From the IMG/VR virus record IMGVR_UViG_2571042053_000015: a DNA stretch of 11,688 nucleotides; one strand, written 5' to 3'. Made by a program: the position numbers and the translations under genes. The notes beneath the pieces were generated by a model. It was not told where the DNA came from, searched no databases, and was given only the letters and a program-made list of their open reading frames with translations. The DNA comes from a virus. Taxonomy: Duplodnaviria > Heunggongvirae > Uroviricota > Caudoviricetes. Shown here in pieces: positions 1 through 11,688 of this stretch; the stretch's first letter is position 1, and each line of letters opens with the position of its first letter.

Positions 1-1260
1 ATGGCAAAGCTGACAGATATCCAAATCAAGTCATGGATTAAGGCAGGAGAGCGCTTCGAGGGGCGCTCTGACGGCAACGGGCTATACCTTCGCTATCGAG
101 CGGGGGATAAAGTGCCTGTATGGCGTTTTCGATATCAGTTCGCTGGGAAATCACGGGTAATGCTTATTGGATCTTATAGCGAAATATCCCTTTCCAAAGC
201 ACGGGAAATAGCCAAGGAATTATCCGCACGTGTAGCCCTAGGCTTCGATGTCGCCGGGGAAAAGAAAGCGCGAAAAGCGGCTGCTATAGAAAAGATGGAG
301 CGGGAGAAAAACGCGCTTCGCGTGTCAGAGCTAGCAACCGAGTATTTCGAACGGCAGATTTTGGGACGCTGGAAACATCCCGATCTTCTGCGCCGGAGAA
401 TCGATAAGGATATCAACCCACATATTGGCAACATGAAGATAGAGGACGTAAAACCCCGTCATATTGATGCGATGCTACAGAGCGTTGTTGATCGTGGCGC
501 TCCAACCGTAGCTAATGACGTTCTGCGCTGGACTAAACGCATATTCGATTATGCTATCAAGCGTCATGCACTGGAATTAAACCCAGCTGGAGCATTTGAT
601 CTGTCAGACGCTGGCGGGCAGGAAAGTAGCCGTATGCGCTGGCTGACCCGTGAAGAACTTATACGTTTTTTCCAAGCTATGCGCACTGCAAAAGGATTCA
701 GCCGCGAGAACGAGCTGACCATGAAGCTAATCCTCTGCCTGTGTTGTCGCAAAATGGAGCTGTGCGGTGCTCAGTGGGATGAATTCGACCTTGATGAAGC
801 AGTGTGGCATCTACCAGCAGAACGCGTTAAAAACGGCGACGCTATTGATATACCACTACCTCCACCTGCGGTTGGTTGGTTGAGAGAGCTTCGCACTATC
901 GCGGGCAGTGGGAGTAAATGGGTTCTCCCCGCGCGGAAGATGCAACACCGCATGATTCCCCACATTCAGGAAAGCACACTCCCCGTGGCGCTGGCAAAAG
1001 TACGCCGCGAAATGCCAGAAGTACCAAACTTCACAATTCACGATTTCAGACGTACCGCCCGCACCCATTTAGCGGCGTTGGGTGTCGATCCCGTAGTCGC
1101 AGAACGTTGCCTGAATCACCGCATTAAAGGCGTTGAGGGTATCTACAACCGCCACCAGTACTTTGAAGAACGACGGGCAGCCCTGGAACTGTGGGCGGGG
1201 CTTCTGGTTTCGCTTGAACGAGGGGAAAACTACAATGTTATTCCTTTATCTAAAATATAA
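1..1260 (+). CDS. int: Phage integrase, tyrosine recombinase, P4 / IntA-like
   Basis: Complete 419-aa ORF (ATG at 1, TAA at 1258-1260). N-terminal arm-binding-like region (GNGLYLRYRAGDKVPVWRFRYQFAGKSRVMLIGSY). C-terminal catalytic signatures of tyrosine recombinases (HDFRRTARTHL H-x-x-R box; GIYNRHQY nucleophile Tyr region). Family assignment is by recall of motifs, not database search. Confidence 0.9.
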   Translation: MAKLTDIQIKSWIKAGERFEGRSDGNGLYLRYRAGDKVPVWRFRYQFAGKSRVMLIGSYSEISLSKAREIAKELSARVALGFDVAGEKKARKAAAIEKMEREKNALRVSELATEYFERQILGRWKHPDLLRRRIDKDINPHIGNMKIEDVKPRHIDAMLQSVVDRGAPTVANDVLRWTKRIFDYAIKRHALELNPAGAFDLSDAGGQESSRMRWLTREELIRFFQAMRTAKGFSRENELTMKLILCLCCRKMELCGAQWDEFDLDEAVWHLPAERVKNGDAIDIPLPPPAVGWLRELRTIAGSGSKWVLPARKMQHRMIPHIQESTLPVALAKVRREMPEVPNFTIHDFRRTARTHLAALGVDPVVAERCLNHRIKGVEGIYNRHQYFEERRAALELWAGLLVSLERGENYNVIPLSKI

Positions 1261-1275
1261 AAGTTTTGTTTGAAG

Positions 1276-1379
1276 GTATTCACCCTATTCACCTTTTTAA
1301 TTAACTTCATGATTTTAAATAATAAAAAAGGGTGAATACTTACAGTAAAACTAATCACCTTAGTATTCACCTGTTCACC
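1276..1379. repeat. Cluster of about six (T)ATTCACC motifs in direct and inverted orientation in the AT-rich spacer after int
   Basis: GGTATTCACCC at 1276-1286, TATTCACC at 1286-1293, inverted GGGTGAATACT at 1330-1340, AATCACC at 1354-1360, AGTATTCACC at 1362-1371, TGTTCACC at 1373-1379. Looks like iterated protein-binding sites; function unknown. Confidence 0.5.
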
Positions 1380-1452
1380 TTCTAAAGCTGCTGTGGCTGC
1401 TCCCCTTGCCCGAAAACACGCCAGCCACCAGCGTTAAAAAATACAAAAATCA

Positions 1453-1476
1453 TCATCGTCCAGATCTGGACGATGA
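1453..1476. repeat. Perfect 24-bp palindrome TCATCGTCCAGATCTGGACGATGA
   Basis: Verified base by base: 12-bp arms, centred on AGATCT, no spacer. Lies in a noncoding stretch between int and the first cargo operon; candidate operator or cruciform. Confidence 0.6.
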
Positions 1477-1573
1477 CGCCAGCACTCACTCTACAAAACA
1501 ACCTAACTTATTGATTTCAAAAGTAGAGAAAATCTGCTTTATGCCACTAGCTCGCACCCGTCCCCAAAAAGAA

Positions 1574-1603
1574 AAAGCCCGCGCTGGAGACGCACGGGCT
1601 TTT
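1574..1603 (+). terminator. Candidate rho-independent terminator-like hairpin flanked by an A-run and a T-run (potentially bidirectional)
   Basis: AAAAAGCCCG-CGCTGGAGACGCA-CGGGCTTTT: GC-rich stem AGCCCG/CGGGCT with a 13-nt loop, followed by TTTT. Sits about 320 bp after the int stop codon. Confidence 0.4.
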
Positions 1604-1679
1604 GGGTACCGATAACCATGTTTGGAATCAACTCATTGAGTTCGGACCTCAATTTGCATGTTATCACAAGAAAAACACA

Positions 1680-1707
1680 TTGCAATAATTGCAACAACGA
1701 ATATTAT
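1680..1707 (+). promoter_or_regulatory. Candidate sigma70 promoter for the 1761-3341 operon, with a palindromic TTGCAA-TAA-TTGCAA element over the -35
   Basis: -35 TTGCAA (1680-1685), 16-bp spacer, -10 TATTAT (1702-1707); duplicated self-complementary TTGCAA hexamers at 1680-1694. The first ATG is at 1761 with a GAGG Shine-Dalgarno at 1750-1753. Confidence 0.3.
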
Positions 1708-1760
1708 CATTGCGTATTATGAAACATAAATATCCGATAGAACATACTGAGGTCTGACCG

Positions 1761-2312
1761 ATGAAAGATATTACAAACATCGCAGTGACTGGCGAAGATG
1801 GCGTGGTGACGTATGCCGACGGCAGTAAAGAGGAGTTCCAGTGCAGCGGAACCGTTGCGACCATCATTGCAAGTCTTGCAACGACACTCGAGAAAGAACG
1901 CAAAATGCGCATCGCCACCGGCGACCGCCTGCGCCGCATGTACACCCGCGACAGTGATATGATTTCCCGCGGTTTGAATGGCACGTCTGCTACTTCCACG
2001 GCACCGACAGCAATGAATGCTGAGTTCATGCGTCTGGTACGTGCCGTAGCGCCGAAATACGATTCAGCACTGCCCGACGCCGACCCGCGCATCGTTGCGC
2101 TCGATGTGCTGCGCTACGCCCCTGCTGAGGCGTTCAGCGCCGTACACCCTACCCCAATGTCAGAAATCCAGCTGGATCAGGCTATCGATATACTCGAGCA
2201 GGTTGGCGACTACATGAAAGCAAACAATATCGCTCCGAAAATAATTTCTACAGGAGACGCAATCCGCAGCATCAATGCTGACAACGCCACCTTCTGGGGC
2301 AAAAAACACTAA
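1761..2312 (+). CDS. Hypothetical protein (183 aa), first gene of cargo operon 1
   Basis: ORF with a GAGG Shine-Dalgarno 8 nt upstream of the ATG. No motif recognised from sequence. Co-directional and tightly spaced with three downstream genes. Confidence 0.7.
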   Translation: MKDITNIAVTGEDGVVTYADGSKEEFQCSGTVATIIASLATTLEKERKMRIATGDRLRRMYTRDSDMISRGLNGTSATSTAPTAMNAEFMRLVRAVAPKYDSALPDADPRIVALDVLRYAPAEAFSAVHPTPMSEIQLDQAIDILEQVGDYMKANNIAPKIISTGDAIRSINADNATFWGKKH

Positions 2313-2318
2313 AGAGAT

Positions 2319-2513
2319 ATGAGCATGCCTATCTATGACCCGAAATTAGCCGCAGGCAACCCACAGCGCGCCCACCGCCCGATGCTGACCCGTCAGGATC
2401 TTGAAGCGGCAAAGGCACGCAATAACTTCGATCGCCAGAGTCGCAACCTGCAGCAACTCAACGAATCAAATGCACGGTTCTGGAGTGAACAGAATGAGAA
2501 AGCCAAACGTTAA
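2319..2513 (+). CDS. Small hypothetical protein (64 aa)
   Basis: ATG at 2319, 7 nt after the upstream stop, preceded by AAAGAG. Hydrophilic, Q/R/N-rich. Overlaps the next ORF by 20 nt in a different frame. No recognisable domain. Confidence 0.45.
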   Translation: MSMPIYDPKLAAGNPQRAHRPMLTRQDLEAAKARNNFDRQSRNLQQLNESNARFWSEQNEKAKR

Positions 2514-2670
2514 GCCGGTCCTGCTGTCCGCCGAGCAGATGCAGGCCATACGCAACATTCAGGAACGTGAACGCCAGCGCTCCAATCTCGGCGTCGCTCC
2601 CACCGTTCACCAGATTGCCCGCGGCCTCATGGCTAAGGCTCTGGCCTCACTGGCAAGCGAGGGCGTGTAA
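2494..2670 (+). CDS. Small hypothetical protein (58 aa), internal start of the 2401-2670 ORF
   Basis: ATG at 2494 preceded by GGAG (2482-2485) at 8-nt spacing. Its TAA stop (2668-2670) overlaps the ATG of the next gene (TAATG), indicating translational coupling. The longer 2401 start lacks a Shine-Dalgarno. Confidence 0.5.
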   Translation: MRKPNVKPVLLSAEQMQAIRNIQERERQRSNLGVAPTVHQIARGLMAKALASLASEGV

Positions 2671-3341
2671 TGGGCGCCATTCACCAGATATATGAGCAGG
2701 AAATGTTCTATAACTGGATAGGCGATGGTAAACGATGTGTAGCATTCCACGAAGCGGGCCATGCAGTAGCCGCATGGCTTATTCGCTTAGATATGCAGGT
2801 TATCGCCATTATGGATGAATCCGGCTACGTTGCTGGCGAACATGTACATGAAGCCCAGTGTTTGGGCGTTGTTAAACACGGCATAATCCACAACCACGAT
2901 CTCAGGCGTTTGCGGGAGAGTAAATCTGGTGTAGTTGGGCACGATGGCAAAGTTATCCCTTTCATACGCTACTACGCGGAAGGTATAAAACGCGATGCAA
3001 CAAAGGCCGCTTTTGTAGCCCTCGCTGGACCAGTAAGCGAAGCCCTTTACGAAAATAACGAAATTTTCAATAAAAAGTATTCACTCCCTCACCGCTATGA
3101 CATGGCTAACGTAAATGACATGCTCGATTTAATATGTGCCACGGATAAGCAAATTAACAGGAAGTTAATGCTTTCTAAACTTGTTGAAAAGACCAAATTC
3201 CTCATGACTCAATACTGGCCGGAAGTAGGAAAAATAGCGCATTTGCTTGAGCGGGATAACATTGTTAATGGGCGCGATGTTAGCTCGCTAATCGGCCTCA
3301 ACGTCATTGACCGGGCAACGCCATTTTTGCTGGCGGAATAA
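2670..3341 (+). CDS. Stand-alone zinc-metallopeptidase-domain protein, FtsH-like (peptidase M41-type HEAGH motif)
   Basis: 223-aa ORF. Residues 24-36 VAFHEAGHAVAAW carry an HExxH zinc-binding motif in the FtsH-like context (FtsH has AYHEAGHAI). No AAA+ ATPase or transmembrane region precedes it. Start codon overlaps the upstream stop. Confidence 0.75.
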   Translation: MGAIHQIYEQEMFYNWIGDGKRCVAFHEAGHAVAAWLIRLDMQVIAIMDESGYVAGEHVHEAQCLGVVKHGIIHNHDLRRLRESKSGVVGHDGKVIPFIRYYAEGIKRDATKAAFVALAGPVSEALYENNEIFNKKYSLPHRYDMANVNDMLDLICATDKQINRKLMLSKLVEKTKFLMTQYWPEVGKIAHLLERDNIVNGRDVSSLIGLNVIDRATPFLLAE

Positions 3342-3417
3342 CCCCTGCCCGAGCTCATTCGACGATTTATTCCTCGGCGGGTAAGCTATACCGGTCTACC
3401 TAACTGCGAGCACAAGG

Positions 3418-4476
3418 ATGATGAATAATTTAATCAATCGCATTGCTTTAACCTTTCTAGCGTTAGTACTCACAGGCTGCACTGCGGGGAAAATCGATCC
3501 CGCAAAAGCGTTAACACAAATGCATATCGTCAAAAGTGATGACTATAAGAAGCGCCCCGGCTGGCCTGCGTTGGTTCGTCTGGGTACTGACGATTGTGAG
3601 ACATACAAAAGTGGCGGCGGTAGCCTCTTTAAGTGGGACGGGCTGACGTGCAACGACAAAAGCATTATCCTGGCGGTTAATAGCAAACCACAGACCATTC
3701 CAGTGTTCTACGCTGCTTACCATGAATACGGGAGCTATGGGGTCGGGGAACTATCCAATTTTGACAATAGCACCCGAACAGGTGAGGAAGCCTCGAAGAT
3801 TCTGGTTAACCTGACCACAGTATTGAACAATCCGGCAAAAGTTGACGCTATCTATGCTGACTATGAAAAGGATCGTTGGAGCATGGGACTTGGTACAGTC
3901 AACGAAAGCGATTTTAAAAAGAGCCTGGCTACTTTTGCTCAGGAACGGGATAAGCTTGCCTCTGAATACCATAAATTACGTGACGCAAACCAAAAGAGAT
4001 ACCTAGCTGAACGGGACGAACGAATCAAACGTGAGAAAGAAGAGGCCATGGCCTCTGAAAAAACGATTGATCTCGTGTTATGGCAGAATCCAACAGTTGA
4101 GCAACAGATGGTTGTTGACGCTCTGCACACTATTAAATTCACAATAAGAAACGATGGCGTGGCATACGCTAACGGTCGCCGATTTATGTCAATTGCCGGG
4201 ATGGAATATCTCAGGAATAGCCTAGCTCTGAGTATGGAGTCATGTTCAGACGCTGGGGCATATGTTGGTGATACGGCATTAAATCGCGCATGTATTCAGG
4301 GCTTGGCGAGGAACATTGTTGAGTGGGGGAAAACCGCCAACGACCGTTCTATTTCAGACAGAGCATGGAACGCAGCCGCAATGGATGGCAGCATTAACTA
4401 CAACCCAATCAAGTATGAAATCCTGTTTTCACATTGGGCAGGAATGGCCCGTGTCTACTCTGCTCGTAGATATTAA
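3418..4476 (+). CDS. Predicted lipoprotein (352 aa) with a central coiled-coil / charged segment; function unknown
   Basis: N-terminus MMNNLINRIALTFLALVLTGC has a hydrophobic signal peptide and lipobox L-T-G-C (Cys21). Charged, helix-prone segment ERDKLASEYHKLRDANQKRYLAERDERIKREKEEA. Gene is visibly AT-rich compared with int and primase. Followed by a terminator. Confidence 0.75.
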   Translation: MMNNLINRIALTFLALVLTGCTAGKIDPAKALTQMHIVKSDDYKKRPGWPALVRLGTDDCETYKSGGGSLFKWDGLTCNDKSIILAVNSKPQTIPVFYAAYHEYGSYGVGELSNFDNSTRTGEEASKILVNLTTVLNNPAKVDAIYADYEKDRWSMGLGTVNESDFKKSLATFAQERDKLASEYHKLRDANQKRYLAERDERIKREKEEAMASEKTIDLVLWQNPTVEQQMVVDALHTIKFTIRNDGVAYANGRRFMSIAGMEYLRNSLALSMESCSDAGAYVGDTALNRACIQGLARNIVEWGKTANDRSISDRAWNAAAMDGSINYNPIKYEILFSHWAGMARVYSARRY

Positions 4477-4526
4477 ACACTGCGCTTCGAACTGATAAAT
4501 TTAAGCTTAATCAGTACATTACTGTT

Positions 4527-4552
4527 AGCCCGCATTTTAGCGGGCTTTCTTT
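4527..4552 (+). terminator. Rho-independent terminator after the lipoprotein gene
   Basis: AGCCCGC-ATTTTA-GCGGGCT stem-loop (7-bp GC-rich stem, 6-nt loop) followed by TTCTTT, 50 nt after the stop at 4476. Confidence 0.6.
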
Positions 4553-4569
4553 AGTTGAGCTTTGTACAA

Positions 4570-4585
4570 GATGTAAATTTACATC
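4570..4585. repeat. Perfect 16-bp AT-rich palindrome GATGTAAATTTACATC between convergent operons
   Basis: Verified self-complementary. Located between the + strand terminator and the stop (4619) of the - strand operon. Confidence 0.5.
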
Positions 4586-4618
4586 CTGATTATCCAGTGC
4601 GCCGTAAAAGCTGGCAAT

Positions 4619-5731
4619 CTATTTAACTAAACGTAAATGTGACGGGCGTATCCCCGATTCCTGGGTACTCGATTTTCCACCATTGATAGCTTCCATAAAG
4701 AAGCTGTTACTGAAAGTAAGTGCACTCGCTTCGTCCGCTGGTAACCTCAACTGCTCGAGAATATCTCCCCTTTTAACGCCTTTGCTGCGTAGGGCTGAAA
4801 ACACTTTATCCAGCACTAATGACTTTTCACGTTCAGCAATCCCTTGAGGCTCACTCGTACGATATCCACGGCGAGCAAGTTCTATCGATAGCTGTCGATA
4901 ATGCCATTCGGTAGATAAACCGACATCAAACGTACGGCGCACCAAAGCCGCCAATGATACCCGCCAGTTCTTTTTTAACGAGATGAGTAGATCAAGCGAT
5001 GGCATTCTTGGCACTAAAGCTAAAATACTACGCTCAGGCATCAAAAAGGCCGATGCGAATCGATCTGCATCCTGCTCAGCTTGGCGGCCGTTGTTAGTTG
5101 AATGTTTATGGAGAACCAAGTGCCCCAGTTCATGAGCTGCATCGAATCGACTACGCTCCGGCGTTTTCATTGTATTCAAAAGCACAAAAGGTTTTTCATC
5201 CATCCAGAACGAAAAGGCGTCTACTTCAATACAATTTTCCGCGAGAGAGAACACACGGACCCCATTAGCTTCAAGAAGATGGACCATGTTAGAGATGGAT
5301 AATTCACCTATCCCCCAACTTTCTCTAACCACGCGAGCAGCTCGCTCAGGCTCAGAATAACCATCGAAACTACAATCAGGTACATTAGGTTTAGGAAGCT
5401 TAAACTGCCCGTCAATCCAAGCTGATAGCTCTTGCGCGAGCTTTCCGGCTCCGAGTGCTGAGTCCCTTTTCTGTGCCGTCAACTTTGTCATTGCACGGAA
5501 ACTAACGGCTTCTGGCGACAGAGTAGGTACATCCCTGTCGAGGAAGAACTCAATCGGATAGCCCAGAACAGCAGAAATCCGTTCCATGGTATCGCTGGCT
5601 ATGGCATCAAAAATCCCTGCTTTCTCGTAATTCGAAATCGTCTTACTAGTCAATTCTGTAGCTTCAGCTAAAGCTCTTTGTGTCAGGCCTCTCCGTTCTC
5701 TGGCTATACGTAAACGCTCTGAATTAAACAT
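4619..5731 (-). CDS. Fused XRE-family HTH / ImmA-IrrE (M78-like) zinc-metallopeptidase protein
   Basis: 370-aa ORF. N-terminal HTH (RLRIARERRGLTQRALAEATELTSKTISNYEKA, typical XRE / Cro-C1 helix-turn-helix). Central HExxH in the ImmA/IrrE context (RFDAAHELGHLVLHKH). Second gene of a two-gene - strand operon, 9 nt after the upstream stop. Confidence 0.85.
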   Translation of the reverse strand: MFNSERLRIARERRGLTQRALAEATELTSKTISNYEKAGIFDAIASDTMERISAVLGYPIEFFLDRDVPTLSPEAVSFRAMTKLTAQKRDSALGAGKLAQELSAWIDGQFKLPKPNVPDCSFDGYSEPERAARVVRESWGIGELSISNMVHLLEANGVRVFSLAENCIEVDAFSFWMDEKPFVLLNTMKTPERSRFDAAHELGHLVLHKHSTNNGRQAEQDADRFASAFLMPERSILALVPRMPSLDLLISLKKNWRVSLAALVRRTFDVGLSTEWHYRQLSIELARRGYRTSEPQGIAEREKSLVLDKVFSALRSKGVKRGDILEQLRLPADEASALTFSNSFFMEAINGGKSSTQESGIRPSHLRLVK

Positions 5732-5740
5732 GGTGCATAT

Positions 5741-6460
5741 TTAGCCTGTTTTTAAAATGTCGAGATCGATATCCGGTGTAAACTGCGGTACATCACCGTT
5801 CTGAACAATAGGGTCAGGTTGATGAGGAGCAATAATTAAACGTGTGGAGAAGGCATTAACTACATTCTTGTTATTGTATGAAATCGGGCGTGAAAGCTCA
5901 GCTCGGATCCCCACGCGCTCATCCCCGTCAATTTCATAAAAATCGTAAAGTAAAAACCATAAGTCCAGTCCGATTTTATTCGGTAGCAGTGGTATAACAT
6001 CACCTTCCGGCATGTCTAAATCCAGCTTAAGCTGGCTATCATCCAGGATAAGCTCACCCTGACCCGGGGTGTTATTATGGATTAACCCCATCAGCTCACA
6101 AGTAAAATCACCTTTCTTCATGCGAGACTCAGGAAATCCATGAACCAAACCTGTCTGATCACACCCCCGGCAGAGGTAAAGGGCAACTTTATCACTTACA
6201 GTCAGTTCAACATTTCGCAGGGACAGACGTTTGTAGCCTTTCGGAGCCAGAATGTCGCGGGCTGCACTCACCCCCTCACCATAGAAATATTGCCCACGTG
6301 AGGTCTTGGGGTGATTCTGAGTCGTCGAATAACGACCAGACAAGCCACGCTCAAGAATACGCCTGAGATCACTTTGGCTCAGATTCAGGGACTGCAGGTA
6401 GGATTCAACATCGTCAGGATCTGCCAAAACAATGGTTTTTGCGAGATTATGAGAGTACAT
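5741..6460 (-). CDS. Hypothetical protein (239 aa), first gene of the - strand two-gene operon; candidate effector / toxin partner
   Basis: ORF with a good Shine-Dalgarno (AAGAGG about 9 nt upstream of the ATG on the - strand). No motif recognised by eye. Immediately upstream of the HTH-peptidase gene. Confidence 0.7.
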   Translation of the reverse strand: MYSHNLAKTIVLADPDDVESYLQSLNLSQSDLRRILERGLSGRYSTTQNHPKTSRGQYFYGEGVSAARDILAPKGYKRLSLRNVELTVSDKVALYLCRGCDQTGLVHGFPESRMKKGDFTCELMGLIHNNTPGQGELILDDSQLKLDLDMPEGDVIPLLPNKIGLDLWFLLYDFYEIDGDERVGIRAELSRPISYNNKNVVNAFSTRLIIAPHQPDPIVQNGDVPQFTPDIDLDILKTG

Positions 6461-6489
6461 CGGAAAAGCCTCTTATATATTTTCTATTT

Positions 6490-6518
6490 TTTATACCTCA
6501 TTTGAGGTTTAAAAACAA
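6490..6518 (-). promoter_or_regulatory. Candidate promoter of the - strand operon with a palindromic operator (ACCTCA-TT-TGAGGT, 6495-6508) in the spacer
   Basis: Read on the - strand: -35 TTGTTT (+ strand 6513-6518), 17-bp spacer containing the 14-bp inverted repeat, -10 TATAAA (+ strand 6490-6495), about 29 nt before the ATG at 6460. Confidence 0.35.
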
Positions 6519-6666
6519 GAAAATCACTGTATAAAATCTCAGAGATAATCGACAGATTAGAGAGTATTATCCATATTGAGGCTATCCCGACGGGGAGAAA
6601 AGCGGCTACGCCTTGCCGCCTGCCTCCCCCATTATCTCAAGGCGGTGACGTGTAAGGCGAACGTGC

Positions 6667-7494
6667 ATGAGTGGTTTTGTTTTTCCTTTCGAGTTTCAAC
6701 CAGTGCCAGAGGCATTGGCAATCCTGAACGACATGGATATTGCTCCCTTTGAAATAACCGAAAAACACCTAGAAAGCTGGTGGGCGGAGGGGAAAATTCA
6801 ACTGTGCTTTAACTGGGGTAGATTCTGGAAAGCTGGCTTAGCCGACGAACTGGCAAAAACAGAAGGCTACGCAGAATTAGGGGCGAAAGAAAAGATCACT
6901 GCGCTCAATGCTGTATCCGCTTCCCCCGAGGCTAACATCAGTCTTGTCGTGCCATCTTACAGCGATTTAAGTTTTATCTGGCGCGGGCATAGCGACGATC
7001 CACTCCCCTGTATCGAGGCCAAACCCTACGGGCTTGATCAACCTTTTGTTATCAAACGCGTTCCTCACACCTGCGAGGACTATTGCGATTACGGTACGCA
7101 GCATTGGGAAAAACTTTACCATTCGCTGCACATTTCGAGTATGGTGCTGCCGCGTGCTGAAGCTGAAAAAATTTATTATCTCTGCAACCCTACAGCTATT
7201 CCAGGCATGGACGAAAAGACGGCATCTGCAGTATCTGCAGTATCTGCGAAAACGGTTAACTATCTGGCCACTGCTTTAAAAGCTTTTATTCACATCCATT
7301 ACGGGGCTGATGTGGCGGACAACCTGCGCAAACATCTTGAGGATCCCACCAGTGATATACGGAAAGACTTTGCGAATAAAGGGATCAAAGCGCCAGGTGG
7401 AAAAGCGCTGGCCAGCCATCTGAAAAATATTCTGATTGAAGTTTTACCCGCGCTCGACAACGTCGATGTGGAGAGTGACGCTGGTAATACATAA
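6667..7494 (+). CDS. Hypothetical protein (275 aa), orphan cargo gene immediately upstream of alpA
   Basis: ORF with AAGG 9 nt upstream of the ATG. No recognisable catalytic motif. Cys/His-rich patch (PHTCEDYCDYGTQHWEKLYHSLH). Contains an in-frame 9-bp tandem repeat. Confidence 0.7.
   Translation: MSGFVFPFEFQPVPEALAILNDMDIAPFEITEKHLESWWAEGKIQLCFNWGRFWKAGLADELAKTEGYAELGAKEKITALNAVSASPEANISLVVPSYSDLSFIWRGHSDDPLPCIEAKPYGLDQPFVIKRVPHTCEDYCDYGTQHWEKLYHSLHISSMVLPRAEAEKIYYLCNPTAIPGMDEKTASAVSAVSAKTVNYLATALKAFIHIHYGADVADNLRKHLEDPTSDIRKDFANKGIKAPGGKALASHLKNILIEVLPALDNVDVESDAGNT
7222..7248 (+). repeat. In-frame 9-bp tandem repeat, three imperfect copies (GCATCTGCA GTATCTGCA GTATCTGCG), encoding ASAVSAVSA
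   Basis: Direct inspection of the sequence inside the 6667-7494 ORF. Confidence 0.7.
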
Positions 7495-7590
7495 CCCCGG
7501 AACATTCCATATATTCCGACGCATTAGAATATTCCAGAGCCCATCACCATAACCTTGCGATTACCTTCTCACTCAATAGCAGGTAATCGC

Positions 7591-7803
7591 ATGAAATCGC
7601 AAACTTTCACCTTTCCCACCAATGGCAACGCACGAGCCAAACAAGTGGCGCACTATCTTGGAGTGCATATCAGCACCGTATGGCGCTATGCAAAACGTCC
7701 TGATTTTCCAAAACCCCACCAGTTAACCGACGGCGTGACCGTCTTTGACGCCGCAGCTATTCGCCAATGGAACAAGCAAAAAACCGGGGGTGAGAATGCT
7801 TAA
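7591..7803 (+). CDS. alpA: AlpA-family (P4 Vis-like) transcriptional regulator / excisionase-like protein
   Basis: 70-aa protein from the internal ATG at 7591 (AGGTAA Shine-Dalgarno just upstream). Sequence QVAHYLGVHISTVWRYAKRPDFPKPHQLTDGVTVFDAAAIRQW matches the AlpA / Vis winged-HTH pattern. Position between int and primase matches P4-like elements. Confidence 0.8.
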   Translation: MKSQTFTFPTNGNARAKQVAHYLGVHISTVWRYAKRPDFPKPHQLTDGVTVFDAAAIRQWNKQKTGGENA

Positions 7804-7857
7804 CGCGACCGTGAGCACACCCTGCACGACAGCCGTTCGATCTCCATTGTTGGCGGG

Positions 7858-8052
7858 TCAGGCTTTCGGCTCAATACCCAGCCGCTGGAGTTCTTTGCGC
7901 CCCAAGGTTTTCATCCAATTAGCTAAACTCATACCTGCATCTCGTGCGGCGGCCTCGAATTGCTCTTTCAATTCTGGGGCGATCCTCACTTGGAAAGCTG
8001 GTGCCTTTCCCCTGCCTTTGGGCTGTTTATCACGCTGTATTACTGTTGACAT
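7858..8052 (-). CDS. Ribbon-helix-helix (Arc / CopG-like) DNA-binding protein, candidate repressor of the replication operon
   Basis: 64-aa product from the internal ATG (MSTVIQRDK...). PAFQVRIAPELKEQFEAAARDAGMSLANWMKTLGRKEL shows the beta-strand / helix / helix pattern of RHH proteins. Divergent from the operon starting at 8187. The longer 8103 start would place the operator-like palindromes inside the coding region. Confidence 0.6.
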   Translation of the reverse strand: MSTVIQRDKQPKGRGKAPAFQVRIAPELKEQFEAAARDAGMSLANWMKTLGRKELQRLGIEPKA

Positions 8053-8108
8053 GTATGTACCTATTAAACTAAGATTCAAATCAATAGGTACGCACCTTAA
8101 CATGTTAA
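8045..8108. promoter_or_regulatory. Divergent control region with operator-like inverted repeats
   Basis: Consensus-like TTGACA at 8045-8050. Perfect 9-bp inverted repeat GTACCTATT (8057-8065) / AATAGGTAC (8083-8091) with a 17-bp spacer. Perfect 12-bp palindrome TTAACATGTTAA (8097-8108). Confidence 0.35.
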
Positions 8109-8122
8109 GGTCAGAAAAGACA

Positions 8123-8156
8123 ACGCCCCGTATGTGTTGCGAGCACTACGGGGCGT
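8123..8156. other. GC-rich hairpin (10-bp perfect stem ACGCCCCGTA / TACGGGGCGT, 14-nt loop) in the leader of the small-gene / primase operon
   Basis: Verified inverted repeat. On the - strand it is followed by TGTCTTTTCTG (terminator-like); on the + strand it sits about 30 nt upstream of the 8187 start. Could be an attenuator, terminator or RNA element. Confidence 0.4.
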
Positions 8157-8186
8157 CTAACCAACAACGTTACGGAGACTAACGCT

Positions 8187-8387
8187 ATGGCTAAGCCGCA
8201 GTGTACCCAAACTCACCCCAAATATCAGTATCGTTTTATGGCGCTCGATCGCGCTGACCGCCAGGCAAAACCCTGCAAAATCATTGTTGAGGCCACCAGC
8301 GAGCACGAAGCGCGTAAAGTGCTGGCTCCTCACTACATCCTGTCACTGTCCGCCGTTTTGCCAGTTCAGGAGGTGAGCCATGTTTAA
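8187..8387 (+). CDS. Small hypothetical protein (66 aa) of the P4-like replication / regulatory module
   Basis: ATG with GGAG 9 nt upstream. First of five tightly coupled small ORFs preceding the primase. Resemblance to small Icd-like / Ash-like proteins of P4-family prophages is only a vague recollection, not verified. Confidence 0.55.
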   Translation: MAKPQCTQTHPKYQYRFMALDRADRQAKPCKIIVEATSEHEARKVLAPHYILSLSAVLPVQEVSHV

Positions 8388-8574
8388 CGTCATTGTCACG
8401 GTCATCTATCACTTTTCGGGAACGATCCGTCGTTTTGCTATTCCGGAACGTTTCAATAATCGTGAGCTCGCAGAGAAAGCAGCGCAGCAGTTAACCCATA
8501 CCAGCTATCTGGATGATGGAGTGAGCAGAATTGTGACCCACGCGGCGGAAGTAGTGGAGGTGCGCCATGTATGA
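8380..8574 (+). CDS. Small hypothetical protein (64 aa)
   Basis: Strong Shine-Dalgarno AGGAGG 6 nt upstream of the ATG. 8-nt overlap with the upstream gene (ATGTTTAA). Confidence 0.55.
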   Translation: MFNVIVTVIYHFSGTIRRFAIPERFNNRELAEKAAQQLTHTSYLDDGVSRIVTHAAEVVEVRHV

Positions 8575-8755
8575 CGCCTACCTGAACCCAAAGGACGCAC
8601 TCCGTCCGATCGCCGTTGCACTCGAGGCTGCGCAGTTTATCGCGCTTGACCCGGAGAATACCGATTTAGCCCATGAGCTGATCGCCTGGGCACTTGAAAC
8701 AGCCGCGCGTGCCTCAGCTGCGCAACGTAACACCCCGGAGGGTAAAAATGCTTAA
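8567..8755 (+). CDS. Small hypothetical protein (62 aa)
   Basis: GGAGG 6 nt upstream of the ATG. 8-nt overlap with the upstream gene (ATGTATGA). Confidence 0.5.
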   Translation: MYDAYLNPKDALRPIAVALEAAQFIALDPENTDLAHELIAWALETAARASAAQRNTPEGKNA

Positions 8756-9056
8756 TCTCAATACATGGAATCTTTTCACGCTGCCGCTGAACGGTGGCGC
8801 AGCTGAGACAGCGCCGGACGATCTGCGTCTGCTGGCCGCTGTGGGGGACGAGGCTCGCAACGACTACCTGCGCGGTGTAAGCGCCATCGGCAATCTGATC
8901 TTCTGGGCATGTGATAACCCCAACTACACCGACCATAAAGCTGACCTGCCAGCGCTGGGCGCATTCCTGAAACATACCGCTGATATGGCGCGCGCTGCCG
9001 AATTCATGGCGGGACATCTGGACTCACTGGCTGACGGCAAAGAGGGAGGCAAATAA
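8748..9056 (+). CDS. Hypothetical protein (102 aa), internal start of the 8694-9056 ORF
   Basis: ATG at 8748 preceded by GGAGGG at about 6-nt spacing; 8-nt overlap with the upstream gene (ATGCTTAA). The 8694 start has no Shine-Dalgarno and lies inside the upstream gene. Confidence 0.55.
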   Translation: MLNLNTWNLFTLPLNGGAAETAPDDLRLLAAVGDEARNDYLRGVSAIGNLIFWACDNPNYTDHKADLPALGAFLKHTADMARAAEFMAGHLDSLADGKEGGK

Positions 9057-9277
9057 TGCCACGCAAACATCGCTCATCAAGCAACCTGATCAAATTAATG
9101 GAACGCCAGAAAGGTATAGGGCGCGACGATATCCAGATCGCAGATAATCGCCCTACATTCATGCCGTACGAGCCGAACGGAACCTACGCCACAAACCGCC
9201 ATACCCGCCGTATGCTACGCAAGCTCCACGGCATCCAGGCAAAAAGAATGTGTGATCTGAAAGGAGGTCAGAAATGA
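9056..9277 (+). CDS. Small basic hypothetical protein (73 aa)
   Basis: GAGGGAGG Shine-Dalgarno upstream. Start overlaps the upstream stop (TAATG) and its stop overlaps the primase start (ATGA). Arg/Lys-rich. Confidence 0.55.
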   Translation: MPRKHRSSSNLIKLMERQKGIGRDDIQIADNRPTFMPYEPNGTYATNRHTRRMLRKLHGIQAKRMCDLKGGQK

Positions 9278-11688
9278 TTGGATTCGATCACCTGATGGAG
9301 CAGGGGCAGAAACGCACCCCTGCTCGTTTTACTGCAAATAGCTTTTCTGACCTGTGCAACGCTATTCTATCGCATCGTGTGCAAATTTCCATCACCCCAG
9401 AAATGACAGATGAAGAGCGACGTAAGGAAAAGCAGAAACTGTACTGGTTCTCGGCAACTACCCAGCAGGACGGGCAGCGACGTAAACCCGAAAACATGGC
9501 ACCGTGTGCTTTCGGTATGCTGGACATTGACGGCAGCACTCCCGGTGCAATCACAGCACTTGTACAGGTGTTCCGGCGATACTCAATGCTGGTGTACCAG
9601 ACGGCCAGCTATACGGCGGATGAACCTCGTCTGCGTATTGTGTGCGAGCTTTCCCGAGCGGTTGAATCTGACTACCGCCGAGCGACAGGCGAATCCATAG
9701 AAACTTTGTTGATGCAGGAGGCTGGATTCTCATTCGCCAGCCTGGCGGATAAGAAAGCACGCTGGGAGAACGGCAGCGATTATGTTGTCTTTGACCGCAA
9801 TGTATACGGCGCTCAAAGCTATTGCTACTGTCCACACTCTGGAGCGAAAGCCCAGAATTACGCGGGCGCGGTAATCGACGTAGGGGCGTTACCGGAACCC
9901 GCCCAGCTACCAGCGAAGGCGGCCAAAAGCAAGGCAAAGAAACAGCGCCAGCGTGACGCCGCGGCGGTAATAGATGCTGATTTTGACGATCTGAGCGCCG
10001 GACCGGATAACTTCCTTATCGCCGACCTGCGCAGCGCACTCTGGTTTCCCTCCATGCTGCAAAAGGCATGGGACAATGGGGCGTGGATTGAGCAGGGCTA
10101 CCGCCTTGCATCTCTCAAAGGCACCGATTTTGAGGACGACGCGCGGCAGCTGTGGGTCGAGTGGTCATTGACCGCGGCGGATGGCTGGCCTGATGAAGAA
10201 CTTGATGAAGTCGCAGCACAACGCTGGGATGGTCTCGCCCCTGACAAAACCAGCTATAAAGCTATTTTTACTGATGCTCAGGCGCAGGGGTGGAATAATC
10301 CGAGCACATGGCGAGCAAAGGCCGCGTACATTGAGAAAATGGCCCCCAGCACACGCGGTGAACTGCTAGCGCAATATTACGGCAACGTATGCCTGAAAGC
10401 TGATGGTAACATGGTTTATCACTATACCGGGCAGGGGTGGGAGCACATCGCCGATGCCGAGTTGCGCCGCCAGCTTTCGCATATTTTCAAAGATAACGGG
10501 GTCCCCTTTACACCGTACGAGGTTAAAAGCGCGATTGAGGCTATGGGAATGCTTCTGCCTTTAATGGGAGAAACTCCTCGTAACCTGATTGGCTTTGCCA
10601 ACGGCGTTTATGATCTCGAGGCGCAGCGATTCCGCCCCCACTGCCCAGACGATTGGCTGACCAGCCATAACGGCGTTGAATACACGCAACCGGTTAAAGG
10701 CGAAACCCTGAAAAACAATGCCCCAAACTTCTGGCGCTGGCTGCATCATTCCGCAGGGGGCGACTTCGACAAAATGGAGAGAATCAAAGCCGCTCTGTAT
10801 ATGGTGCTGGCAAACCGCTACGACTGGCAACTGTTCATCGAGGTTACCGGTGCTGGTGGCAGTGGTAAAAGCGTGTTCACGGGTATTGCACGTATGCTGA
10901 CGGGCGAACTACACGCCACCAGCGGCACAATGGAGGACATGGACACCGCGCGCGAACGCGCATCTTTTGTCGGCAAAAGCCTGATCACCCTACCCGACCA
11001 AGCAACATATACGGGTTCCGGGCCGGGTATCAAGGCTATAACGGGCGGCGACGTGGTAAGGATCGACCCAAAGCACGAAAAGCCATTCCATACGGTTATT
11101 CGCGCCGTTGTCATCGCAACAAACAACGAACCTATGCGTTTCACCGAACGACAAGGCGGGATATCGCGGCGCCGGGTTATTTTCCCGTTTAACCATGAAG
11201 TGCCGGAGGCGGAACGTGATCCCCATCTGCTCGATAAAATTAAAGCCGAACTGCCGGTAATCGTCCGTGGTCTGCTGATTGACTTCGAACAGCCAGGCAA
11301 AGCCAAATCGCTACTTATCGCGCAGCGTGATTCAGCGGAAGCGCTGCAGGTGAAGAACGATAACGACCCGATGTATGGCTTTTGCTCTTACCTGCTAGGT
11401 TTGCCGAATCCCGAGGGCATGTACATGGGCGATGGGCGCATGGCGCGAGAGCCACGCATCTACCTCTATCATGCTTATCTGGCCTATCTGGAAGCCTACG
11501 GTTATCAGAGAACCCCCACCCTGCCAAAGTTCAGCGGAGATTTACGGGACACGCTCAAAGCCTTTGGTATTACTCTGGACAGTAAAAAGAGTAAAAAGGG
11601 CAAAAGATATAACGTCAATTTGTCTGACAGGGCACAAGAATGGCTGGGAGAAGACGAACTCTCAGCTGTGCCCGACACATTGCAGTAA
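9274..11688 (+). CDS. P4-alpha-like DNA primase / helicase (phage-plasmid primase, P4 family, P-loop NTPase C-terminal region)
   Basis: 804-aa ORF with a strong Shine-Dalgarno (AGGAGG) and TAA at 11686-11688. Walker A P-loop VTGAGGSGKSVF (about nt 10846-10880). Size and position after alpA and the small genes fit the primase-helicase of P4-like satellites / PICIs. Recalled from family knowledge, not searched. Confidence 0.85.
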   Translation: MIGFDHLMEQGQKRTPARFTANSFSDLCNAILSHRVQISITPEMTDEERRKEKQKLYWFSATTQQDGQRRKPENMAPCAFGMLDIDGSTPGAITALVQVFRRYSMLVYQTASYTADEPRLRIVCELSRAVESDYRRATGESIETLLMQEAGFSFASLADKKARWENGSDYVVFDRNVYGAQSYCYCPHSGAKAQNYAGAVIDVGALPEPAQLPAKAAKSKAKKQRQRDAAAVIDADFDDLSAGPDNFLIADLRSALWFPSMLQKAWDNGAWIEQGYRLASLKGTDFEDDARQLWVEWSLTAADGWPDEELDEVAAQRWDGLAPDKTSYKAIFTDAQAQGWNNPSTWRAKAAYIEKMAPSTRGELLAQYYGNVCLKADGNMVYHYTGQGWEHIADAELRRQLSHIFKDNGVPFTPYEVKSAIEAMGMLLPLMGETPRNLIGFANGVYDLEAQRFRPHCPDDWLTSHNGVEYTQPVKGETLKNNAPNFWRWLHHSAGGDFDKMERIKAALYMVLANRYDWQLFIEVTGAGGSGKSVFTGIARMLTGELHATSGTMEDMDTARERASFVGKSLITLPDQATYTGSGPGIKAITGGDVVRIDPKHEKPFHTVIRAVVIATNNEPMRFTERQGGISRRRVIFPFNHEVPEAERDPHLLDKIKAELPVIVRGLLIDFEQPGKAKSLLIAQRDSAEALQVKNDNDPMYGFCSYLLGLPNPEGMYMGDGRMAREPRIYLYHAYLAYLEAYGYQRTPTLPKFSGDLRDTLKAFGITLDSKKSKKGKRYNVNLSDRAQEWLGEDELSAVPDTLQ

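What the first reader, a model, noticed from the sequence alone, without database searches (positions are those of the whole stretch)
3418..4476. AT-rich lipoprotein gene with coiled-coil segment, candidate superinfection-exclusion or surface factor
Clear lipobox (LTGC, Cys21) after a signal peptide. No recognisable enzymatic motif. Strongly charged helical segment mid-protein. Has its own terminator. Prophage and satellite lipoproteins often mediate superinfection exclusion or receptor masking (for example Cor, Llp). It could also be the envelope-targeting partner of the upstream protease operon, given only 76 bp separation and the same strand.
Basis: partly seen in the sequence, partly recalled or inferred. 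Interest (0 to 1): 0.5.

Follow-up and report, generated by a model that had tools for sequence, protein, structure and literature searches.

The report
Phage-satellite cargo lipoprotein, unknown fold
This is a real gene for an exported, lipid-anchored envelope protein of an uncharacterised family, carried as swappable cargo by phage satellites and prophages next to anti-phage systems; it may block or mask phage entry, but nothing yet shows that.

Summary
Window 3418-4476 (+) encodes a 352-aa protein with a signal peptide and lipobox LTGC (Cys21), a charged 36-residue helix, and a hairpin terminator at 4527-4546. It is only mildly AT-rich (46.6% vs 49.9% GC), and a true coiled coil is not shown.

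Homologues sit in satellite accessory slots. Distant ones sit as inserts in baseplate modules of E217/Pam3-like prophages. The lipobox Cys is conserved throughout and +2 is never Asp.

The upstream M41-like peptidase module is satellite backbone: it is found in 57 E. coli genomes against 15 for the lipoprotein, and the two diverge discordantly. A dedicated protease partnership is therefore unlikely.

Best reading: an outer-membrane-anchored periplasmic cargo lipoprotein acting at the envelope, most plausibly in phage exclusion or receptor masking. This is analogous to Cor and Llp but not homologous to them, and the function is inferred, not shown.

The parts
3418..4476 (+). Lipoprotein ORF, 352 aa (mature about 332 aa, about 37 kDa, pI 7.7)
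3418..3480 (+). Signal peptide plus lipobox LTGC. Cys21 codon at 3478-3480. +2 residue is Thr, so outer-membrane sorting is inferred.
3481..3537 (+). Low-confidence tether (residues 22-40)
   Evidence: pLDDT 46-56
3538..3942 (+). N-terminal helical domain (residues about 41-175). Invariant C60/C78 pair and YAAYHEYG motif.
3946..4053 (+).
4057..4473 (+). C-terminal family-defining domain (residues 214-352). Invariant C276/C292. Conserved Y282, W303, I312-S313, W317, F337, H339-W340, R345. pLDDT 94, no known fold relative.
4527..4556 (+). Intrinsic terminator-like hairpin plus T-run after the ORF, facing the convergent rmrA
3342..3417 (+). 76-bp spacer between the peptidase and lipoprotein ORFs. 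No scanned promoter or + strand terminator. Positions 3342-3408 stay attached to the peptidase gene in an island that lacks the lipoprotein.
3330..7546 (.). Variable cargo slot of this satellite type (lipoprotein, RmrA, RmrT, 275-aa unknown), flanked by 99%-conserved backbone shared with the E2348/69 island
1761..3341 (+). Upstream backbone module p183-p64-p58-M41-like peptidase (HEAGH, stand-alone FtsH-like protease domain). Promoter-like sites at 1661-1707.
4619..6460 (-). Rosmer defence pair RmrA (4619-5731) and RmrT (5741-6460), convergent neighbour in the same cargo slot

Best explanation
The gene is self-contained cargo of a PICI-type phage satellite.

Processing and location: its product is exported by Sec, lipidated at Cys21 and, because +2 is Thr, sorted by Lol to the inner leaflet of the outer membrane (inferred from the lipobox and +2 rules). 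About 20 flexible residues tether two disulfide-stabilised, mainly helical periplasmic domains joined by a long charged helix.

Likely action: there is no catalytic signature. The conserved aromatic and Arg residues of the C-terminal domain suggest a binding protein.

Most likely role (inferred from context only): it binds an envelope component that phages need, either a receptor from its periplasmic side or an entry factor. This would block adsorption or DNA entry of competing phages. It could also keep released phage and satellite particles from being wasted on cell debris. That is the logic of Cor (phi80/N15/HK022) and Llp (T5), without any homology to them.

Expression: in this window it is probably transcribed by read-through from the upstream satellite operon, ending at the 4527-4546 terminator. 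In helper-embedded satellites the upstream gene is divergent, so there it must have its own promoter.
For: Shown here:
- A real, conserved gene under purifying selection.
- Lipobox invariant across the family, +2 never Asp, and two invariant Cys pairs.
- Confident two-domain model: pLDDT 84 for the whole protein and 94 for the C-terminal domain.
- No catalytic family hit.

Context:
- It lies in the variable slot 3330-7546 next to RmrTA.
- The slot content is swapped in E2348/69 and in EC2001.
- It lies in the AlpA-icd slot next to a toxin-antitoxin pair in helper-embedded PICIs.
- It lies after the primase/peptidase genes in Dickeya, Yersinia and Serratia satellites.
- It lies next to PDC-M59 in Yersinia.
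- Published work places PICI immune genes at the 5' end, the 3' end and next to pri (PMC11364771).
- Distant lipobox-bearing homologues are inserted at varying positions in baseplate modules of E217/Pam3-like prophages. Prophages with the same baseplate and head gene types host the lipoprotein-carrying embedded satellites.
- phi80 cor has the same anatomy: a lipoprotein gene in the tail region with its own terminator.
- Distribution is patchy: 15 of 5426 E. coli genomes.
Against: - No sequence or fold similarity to any known exclusion or defence protein.
- It is 4-5 times larger than Cor or Llp.
- dN/dS shows no gene-wide diversifying selection of the kind often seen at phage-host interfaces.
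- A remote homologue sits in an ordinary chromosomal site between argS and flhE.
- Localisation, expression state and binding partner are all untested.
- Neighbourhood association with defence genes rests on a few contexts.
Confidence: 0.4

Rival explanations
1. It is a lysogenic-conversion or host-fitness factor unrelated to phage. The envelope lipoprotein would alter serum or complement resistance, adhesion, envelope stress tolerance or host interaction, in the way Bor and TraT do for lambda and F.
For: - It is carried by host-associated Enterobacterales, including EHEC/EPEC-type E. coli, Salmonella, Klebsiella, Yersinia, Dickeya, Pectobacterium, Photorhabdus and Xenorhabdus.
- Satellites of this type also carry PerC-type regulators.
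- A remote homologue is chromosomal at argS-flhE.
- Purifying selection with no arms-race signal.
Against: - No Pfam hit of any kind. My reading, not separately checked, is that this excludes the Bor and TraT families.
- Its immediate neighbours are defence or toxin-antitoxin genes rather than virulence genes.
- Its position inside prophage baseplate modules is typical of exclusion inserts.
Confidence: 0.2
2. It is the envelope partner of the upstream M41-like peptidase: a two-compartment system in which the cytoplasmic FtsH-like protease and the periplasmic lipoprotein act in one pathway.
For: - Same strand, 76-bp gap, no intervening terminator and one downstream terminator.
- A peptidase-like HExxH ORF of about 220 aa lies immediately upstream in E. 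coli, Dickeya, Yersinia and Serratia satellites and in L024/L025, even where the peptidases are only about 23-30% identical.
- The block 1572-4486 is shared as a unit at 93% identity with a different PICI backbone.
Against: - The peptidase module occurs far more often without the lipoprotein: 57 against 15 E. coli genomes.
- The lipoprotein occurs about 6-7 kb from the peptidase in helper-embedded PICIs, and with no peptidase in prophages or at ssrA remnants.
- Divergence is discordant.
- The peptidase has no signal peptide or membrane segment, so the two proteins sit in different compartments.
Confidence: 0.12
3. It is a periplasmic inhibitor or immunity protein against an envelope-targeting enzyme such as lysozyme or endolysin, a spanin, a type VI effector or a bacteriocin. 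One possible role is tuning helper lysis timing for the satellite.
For: - A periplasmic lipoprotein with no catalytic motif and a conserved aromatic-rich domain.
- Many such inhibitors and immunity proteins are lipoproteins (general knowledge).
- It may be co-expressed with the satellite late operon in this window.
Against: - No Pfam family hit.
- No cognate toxin or effector gene was identified in the annotated neighbourhoods.
Confidence: 0.12

Closest known systems
Cor (phi80/N15/HK022 superinfection-exclusion lipoprotein acting through FhuA)
   Same: Mobile-element lipoprotein with a near-identical style of signal peptide and lipobox (LTGC). A small autonomous gene with its own terminator among tail or cargo genes. 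The proposed logic of envelope-level exclusion is the same.
   Different: Cor is 77 aa against 352 aa here. hhalign aligns only the 17-residue signal peptide. The mature parts are unrelated. Cor's target and phenotype are known; here nothing has been tested.
Llp of phage T5 (FhuA-masking lipoprotein that also protects progeny from debris)
   Same: Proposed working principle: an outer-membrane lipoprotein masks the receptor, benefiting both resident and released particles. This would also explain carriage by both the prophages and their satellites.
   Different: tblastn found no match to any of 50,697 phage records; I did not check that T5 is among them. Much larger and with a different architecture. 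T5 is lytic, whereas this gene is on a satellite or prophage.
Immune cargo of PICI accessory regions (for example Tai; 5', 3' and pri-adjacent hotspots)
   Same: It occupies the same kinds of slot in PICI-type satellites and sits beside a known defence system.
   Different: Tai homologues are described in phages such as phi80 and P22, yet this protein matches no phage genome. The paper rules out superinfection exclusion for Tai and shows it blocks tail assembly. This protein is exported, so it would have to act in the envelope.
TraT and Bor (plasmid or prophage outer-membrane lipoproteins for surface exclusion and serum resistance)
   Same: Mobile-element-encoded outer-membrane lipoproteins that change cell-surface behaviour.
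   Different: The protein and its homologues match no Pfam family at all. Different size and predicted fold.

Membership tests
Bacterial lipoproteins (Lgt/LspA/Lnt substrates) | N-terminal signal peptide with a positive n-region, a hydrophobic core and a lipobox [LVI][ASTVI][GAS]C | tested here: met
   R8, the core IALTFLALV and LTGC with Cys21. A PS51257-style pattern matches residues 11-21. Cys is invariant in 31 of 31 homologues and a lipobox is present in nearly all full-length remote members. SignalP and LipoP were not available.
Bacterial lipoproteins (Lgt/LspA/Lnt substrates) | Actual lipidation and cleavage; outer- versus inner-membrane sorting | not testable with these tools
   Only the +2 rule can be applied: +2 is Thr here and never Asp in the family, so outer-membrane sorting is inferred.
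Cor superinfection-exclusion family | Sequence homology of the mature protein to Cor | tested here: not met
   hhalign of phi80 Cor against the family profile aligns only signal-peptide residues 3-19, probability 28%. No tblastn hit in any phage genome.
Llp (T5) family | Sequence homology to T5 Llp | tested here: not met
   No tblastn match at E <= 1e-3 in 50,697 phage records. No PHROG hit.
Known or candidate anti-phage defence proteins (PADLOC-DB v2) | Match to a PADLOC model | tested here: not met
   0 families at E <= 0.1 for the lipoprotein, while its neighbours hit RmrA (1e-149) and RmrT (1e-52).
Superinfection-exclusion function (any family) | Reduced adsorption or DNA entry of superinfecting phage when the protein is expressed | not testable with these tools
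   Needs plaque, adsorption and injection assays.
Tai (tail assembly inhibition) systems of PICIs and phages | Homology to Tai proteins found in phi80, P22 and related phages | tested here: not met
   No tblastn match to any phage genome in the collection, which includes phi80 (JX871397). The paper rules out superinfection exclusion for Tai and shows a block of tail assembly, whereas this protein is exported.
Pfam families in general (including TraT, Bor, Rz1 o-spanin, MliC/PliC/Ivy and LprI lysozyme inhibitors) | Pfam domain match | tested here: not met
   No Pfam hit for the protein. No relevant hit for any of 48 family members. E. coli YecT is unrelated.
Operon partner of the M41-like peptidase | Consistent co-occurrence and co-evolution with the peptidase | tested here: not met
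   57 against 15 E. coli genomes. The two are separated or the peptidase is absent in many loci. Identities are discordant.
Operon partner of the M41-like peptidase | Co-transcription in this window | tested here: inconclusive
   No terminator or strong promoter in the 76-bp gap. RT-PCR is needed.

The most novel reading that the evidence does not exclude
This is the founding member of a new family of envelope-acting phage-exclusion or receptor-masking lipoproteins with a previously unseen two-domain fold. The family would be shared between E217/Pam3-like temperate myophages (as baseplate-module inserts) and the PICI satellites that parasitise them. It would protect the lysogen from superinfection and keep released phage and satellite particles from being lost on debris.
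Probability: 0.3. Interest if true: 0.55.

Novelty: new variant of a known kind. Interest (0 to 1): 0.38.

Why it matters
Satellites and prophages are a main source of new anti-phage functions. Envelope-level exclusion proteins are under-sampled, because defence-finding pipelines focus on cytoplasmic systems.

This gene offers a conserved, confidently folded periplasmic lipoprotein with no known relatives. It sits in satellite immunity slots and in prophage tail modules. That makes it a cheap, well-defined candidate for a plaque and adsorption screen.

If it excludes phages, it would add a new fold and possibly a new envelope target to the short list of Cor- and Llp-type proteins. It would also be an example of a helper-type phage and its satellites carrying related cargo. 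If it does not, it is one more conserved hypothetical cargo gene.

Tried and rejected

2. Sequence route. A PDB profile search gave only coiled-coil noise. An exhaustive profile search of 1.84 billion representatives gave just 47 relatives, none annotated. A C-terminal-domain profile search of the 5.8-billion set gave 9 hits, with no fusions and no Pfam.

3. YecT. A remote homologue occupies the argS-flhE site where K-12 has yecT, but YecT is unrelated.

4. The idea that the upstream p183 is the PICI packaging protein Rpp. RppA and RppC are 144 and 153 aa, and p183 has no PDB sequence match at E <= 1. Not supported.

5. A 214-aa 'HExxH' ORF directly upstream of the lipoprotein in L019 looked like a moved peptidase-lipoprotein pair, but it is unrelated to the peptidases; the motif is there by chance.

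6. An own-promoter claim for this window. The upstream alignment is convincing only for the last ~15 nt, and positions 3342-3408 stay with the peptidase gene in an island lacking the lipoprotein. I do not claim a dedicated promoter here.

7. Literature. No paper mentions these proteins by accession. The PICI papers read do not describe this family.

Full report
**Observation**

The ORF at 3418-4476 (+) encodes 352 aa. RefSeq annotates the identical CDS as a hypothetical protein in E. coli 2011C-4251.

- Signal peptide and lipobox. The N-terminus MMNNLINRIALTFLALVLTGC has a basic residue, a hydrophobic core and the lipobox LTGC, with Cys21 at nucleotides 3478-3480. A PS51257-type pattern matches.
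- Conservation. The Cys is invariant in an alignment of 31 homologues, as are two further Cys pairs, C60/C78 and C276/C292. These are most simply read as periplasmic disulfides. Across all relatives retrieved, nearly every full-length protein has a lipobox. The shorter C-domain-only relatives mostly begin with hydrophobic, signal-peptide-like N-termini. The +2 residue is never Asp.
- Charged helix. Residues 177-212 are 55% charged and are modelled as a single long helix. I could not show a heptad coiled coil.
- Terminator and promoters. A hairpin plus T-run lies at 4527-4546. No terminator-like site was found on the + strand in the 76-bp gap to the upstream peptidase ORF. The only promoter-like sites upstream are at 1661-1707, before the first gene of that operon, and one inside the peptidase gene.
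- Base composition. 'AT-rich' is marginal: 46.6% GC against 49.9%.
- Selection. dN/dS against homologues is 0.09-0.23, so this is a functional gene.

**Where it sits**

The window is a PICI-type phage satellite between yicC and dinD in E. coli. It carries an integrase, an AlpA-type regulator, an Icd-like gene and a D5/P4-type primase.

Comparison with the same island in EPEC E2348/69 shows 99% identical backbone at 1-3329 and 7547-11291. The slot between, 3330-7546, is completely different. In this window that slot holds the lipoprotein, a Rosmer pair (RmrA 1e-149, RmrT 1e-52) and an unknown 275-aa ORF. The lipoprotein is therefore swappable cargo, not backbone.

**The family**

- The family is small: 40 clusters at 90% identity, and 47 representatives at 50% identity among 1.84 billion proteins. 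The named members are all Enterobacterales.
- It has no Pfam, NCBIfam, PADLOC or PHROG match.
- It has no match in 50,697 phage genomes or 72,556 plasmids.
- The gene is in 15 of 5426 complete E. coli genomes.

**Structure**

AlphaFold2 gives a confident model (pLDDT 84). It shows a disordered tether, a helical N-terminal domain, the long helix, and a C-terminal alpha/beta domain.

**Contexts elsewhere**

1. E. coli tRNA-Gly PICIs carry the block 1572-4486 (p183-p64-p58-peptidase-lipoprotein) at 93% identity at the 3' end of a different backbone.
2. In Dickeya, Yersinia and Serratia satellites the order is primase, a divergent HExxH peptidase-like ORF, the lipoprotein, then the island end.
3. 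In helper-embedded PICIs of Salmonella, Klebsiella and E. coli the lipoprotein lies between AlpA and icd, beside a divergent toxin-antitoxin pair. The p183-to-peptidase module lies about 6-7 kb away, after the primase. A sister element in EC2001 has another gene in that slot.
4. Distant homologues (36-40% identity, or matching only the C-terminal domain), all with a lipobox, are inserted at varying positions inside the baseplate module of E217/Pam3-like prophages of Photorhabdus, Xenorhabdus and Enterobacter. The embedded satellites sit inside prophages with the same baseplate and head gene types.
5. In Yersinia the next genes are the PADLOC candidate PDC-M59A/B.
6. One remote homologue is an ordinary chromosomal gene between argS and flhE.

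Published work places PICI immune genes at the 5' end, the 3' end and next to pri (PMC11364771). That matches these positions.

**The protease-partner idea**

The 223-aa upstream protein is a stand-alone FtsH-like protease domain. It has HEAGH and aligns over residues 20-210 with the AFG3L2 protease domain. It shows no strongly hydrophobic segment.

Its module is backbone. It occurs in 57 E. coli genomes against 15 for the lipoprotein, including islands with no lipoprotein. Divergence is discordant: in Dickeya the lipoprotein is 69% identical and the peptidase 25%; in Salmonella 68% and 82%.

The recurring adjacency is best explained by a cargo slot just downstream of the last backbone gene. 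A benefit from co-expression with the satellite operon cannot be excluded.

**Mechanism**

Shown: an exported lipoprotein precursor, conserved across the family, carried as cargo on mobile elements.

Inferred from established rules: Lgt/LspA processing and Lol sorting to the outer membrane.

Inferred from context only: it acts by binding an envelope component to exclude competing phages, or to mask a receptor at lysis, as Cor and Llp do. phi80 cor has the same gene anatomy, but its mature part is unrelated.

I put this reading at about 0.4. The rivals are a non-phage conversion factor (0.2), a true protease partner (0.12) and a periplasmic inhibitor or immunity protein (0.12).

**Verdict**

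This is a real and well-defined but functionally unproven cargo lipoprotein. It is novel as a family and as a fold, but ordinary as a kind of element. Interest is moderate to low until a phenotype is shown.

Noticed in passing
window 4619-6460 (-): A complete Rosmer defence pair. RmrA is an HTH plus M78/IrrE-like peptidase (PADLOC 1e-149) and RmrT scores 1e-52. It is convergent with the lipoprotein gene.
   Followed up: partly
window 2670-3341 (+): A stand-alone FtsH/M41-like protease domain with HEAGH, no AAA+ module and no strongly hydrophobic segment. It aligns over residues 20-210 with the AFG3L2 protease domain. It is a conserved backbone gene of several PICI types, with variants down to about 20% identity. 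Function in satellites unknown.
   Followed up: partly
window 1761-2670 (+): p183-p64-p58 travel with the peptidase as a module across E. coli, Salmonella and Klebsiella satellites. The 58-aa product (2494-2670, overlapping the end of p64) is 98% identical between E. coli and Salmonella, while its neighbours are 62-82% identical. p183 has no PDB sequence match, so a link to Rpp is not supported.
   Followed up: partly
window 6667-7494 (+): A 275-aa ORF in the same cargo slot with no hit in Pfam, NCBIfam, PADLOC or PHROGs. E2348/69 has a different 226-aa gene at that position.
   Followed up: no
window 8123-8156: A 10-bp inverted repeat (ACGCCCCGTA / TACGGGGCGT) around a 14-nt spacer, between a minus-strand 81-aa ORF and the Icd-like gene. 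The spacer is exactly inverted in the otherwise 98.7% identical E2348/69 island. It could be a hairpin-loop flip or a small switch.
   Followed up: partly
L008, L009, L035, L039: Satellites carrying the lipoprotein are integrated inside the head-gene region of an E217/Pam3-like prophage. These are helper-embedded PICIs as described in PMC10111431. In EC2001 the satellite is followed directly by baseplate genes.
   Followed up: partly
L005 11105-12577: In Yersinia enterocolitica the lipoprotein lies near the PADLOC candidate system PDC-M59A/B, which includes a Fic-domain protein.
   Followed up: no
L003 9853-10898; P0017, P0030, P0035, P0036: Frameshifted or truncated copies of the lipoprotein gene exist in some E. 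coli strains, so the gene is sometimes decaying.
   Followed up: no
window 1451-1603 (-): Two strong terminator-like hairpins on the minus strand in the integrase-p183 intergenic region, with no minus-strand gene nearby that they would obviously terminate.
   Followed up: no
L037 7001-8101: A remote lipobox-bearing homologue (E 2e-27) is a stand-alone chromosomal gene between argS and flhE in a metagenomic contig whose neighbouring genes match the E. coli argS-flhE-flhA-che order. E. coli K-12 has the unrelated yecT at this site.
   Followed up: yes
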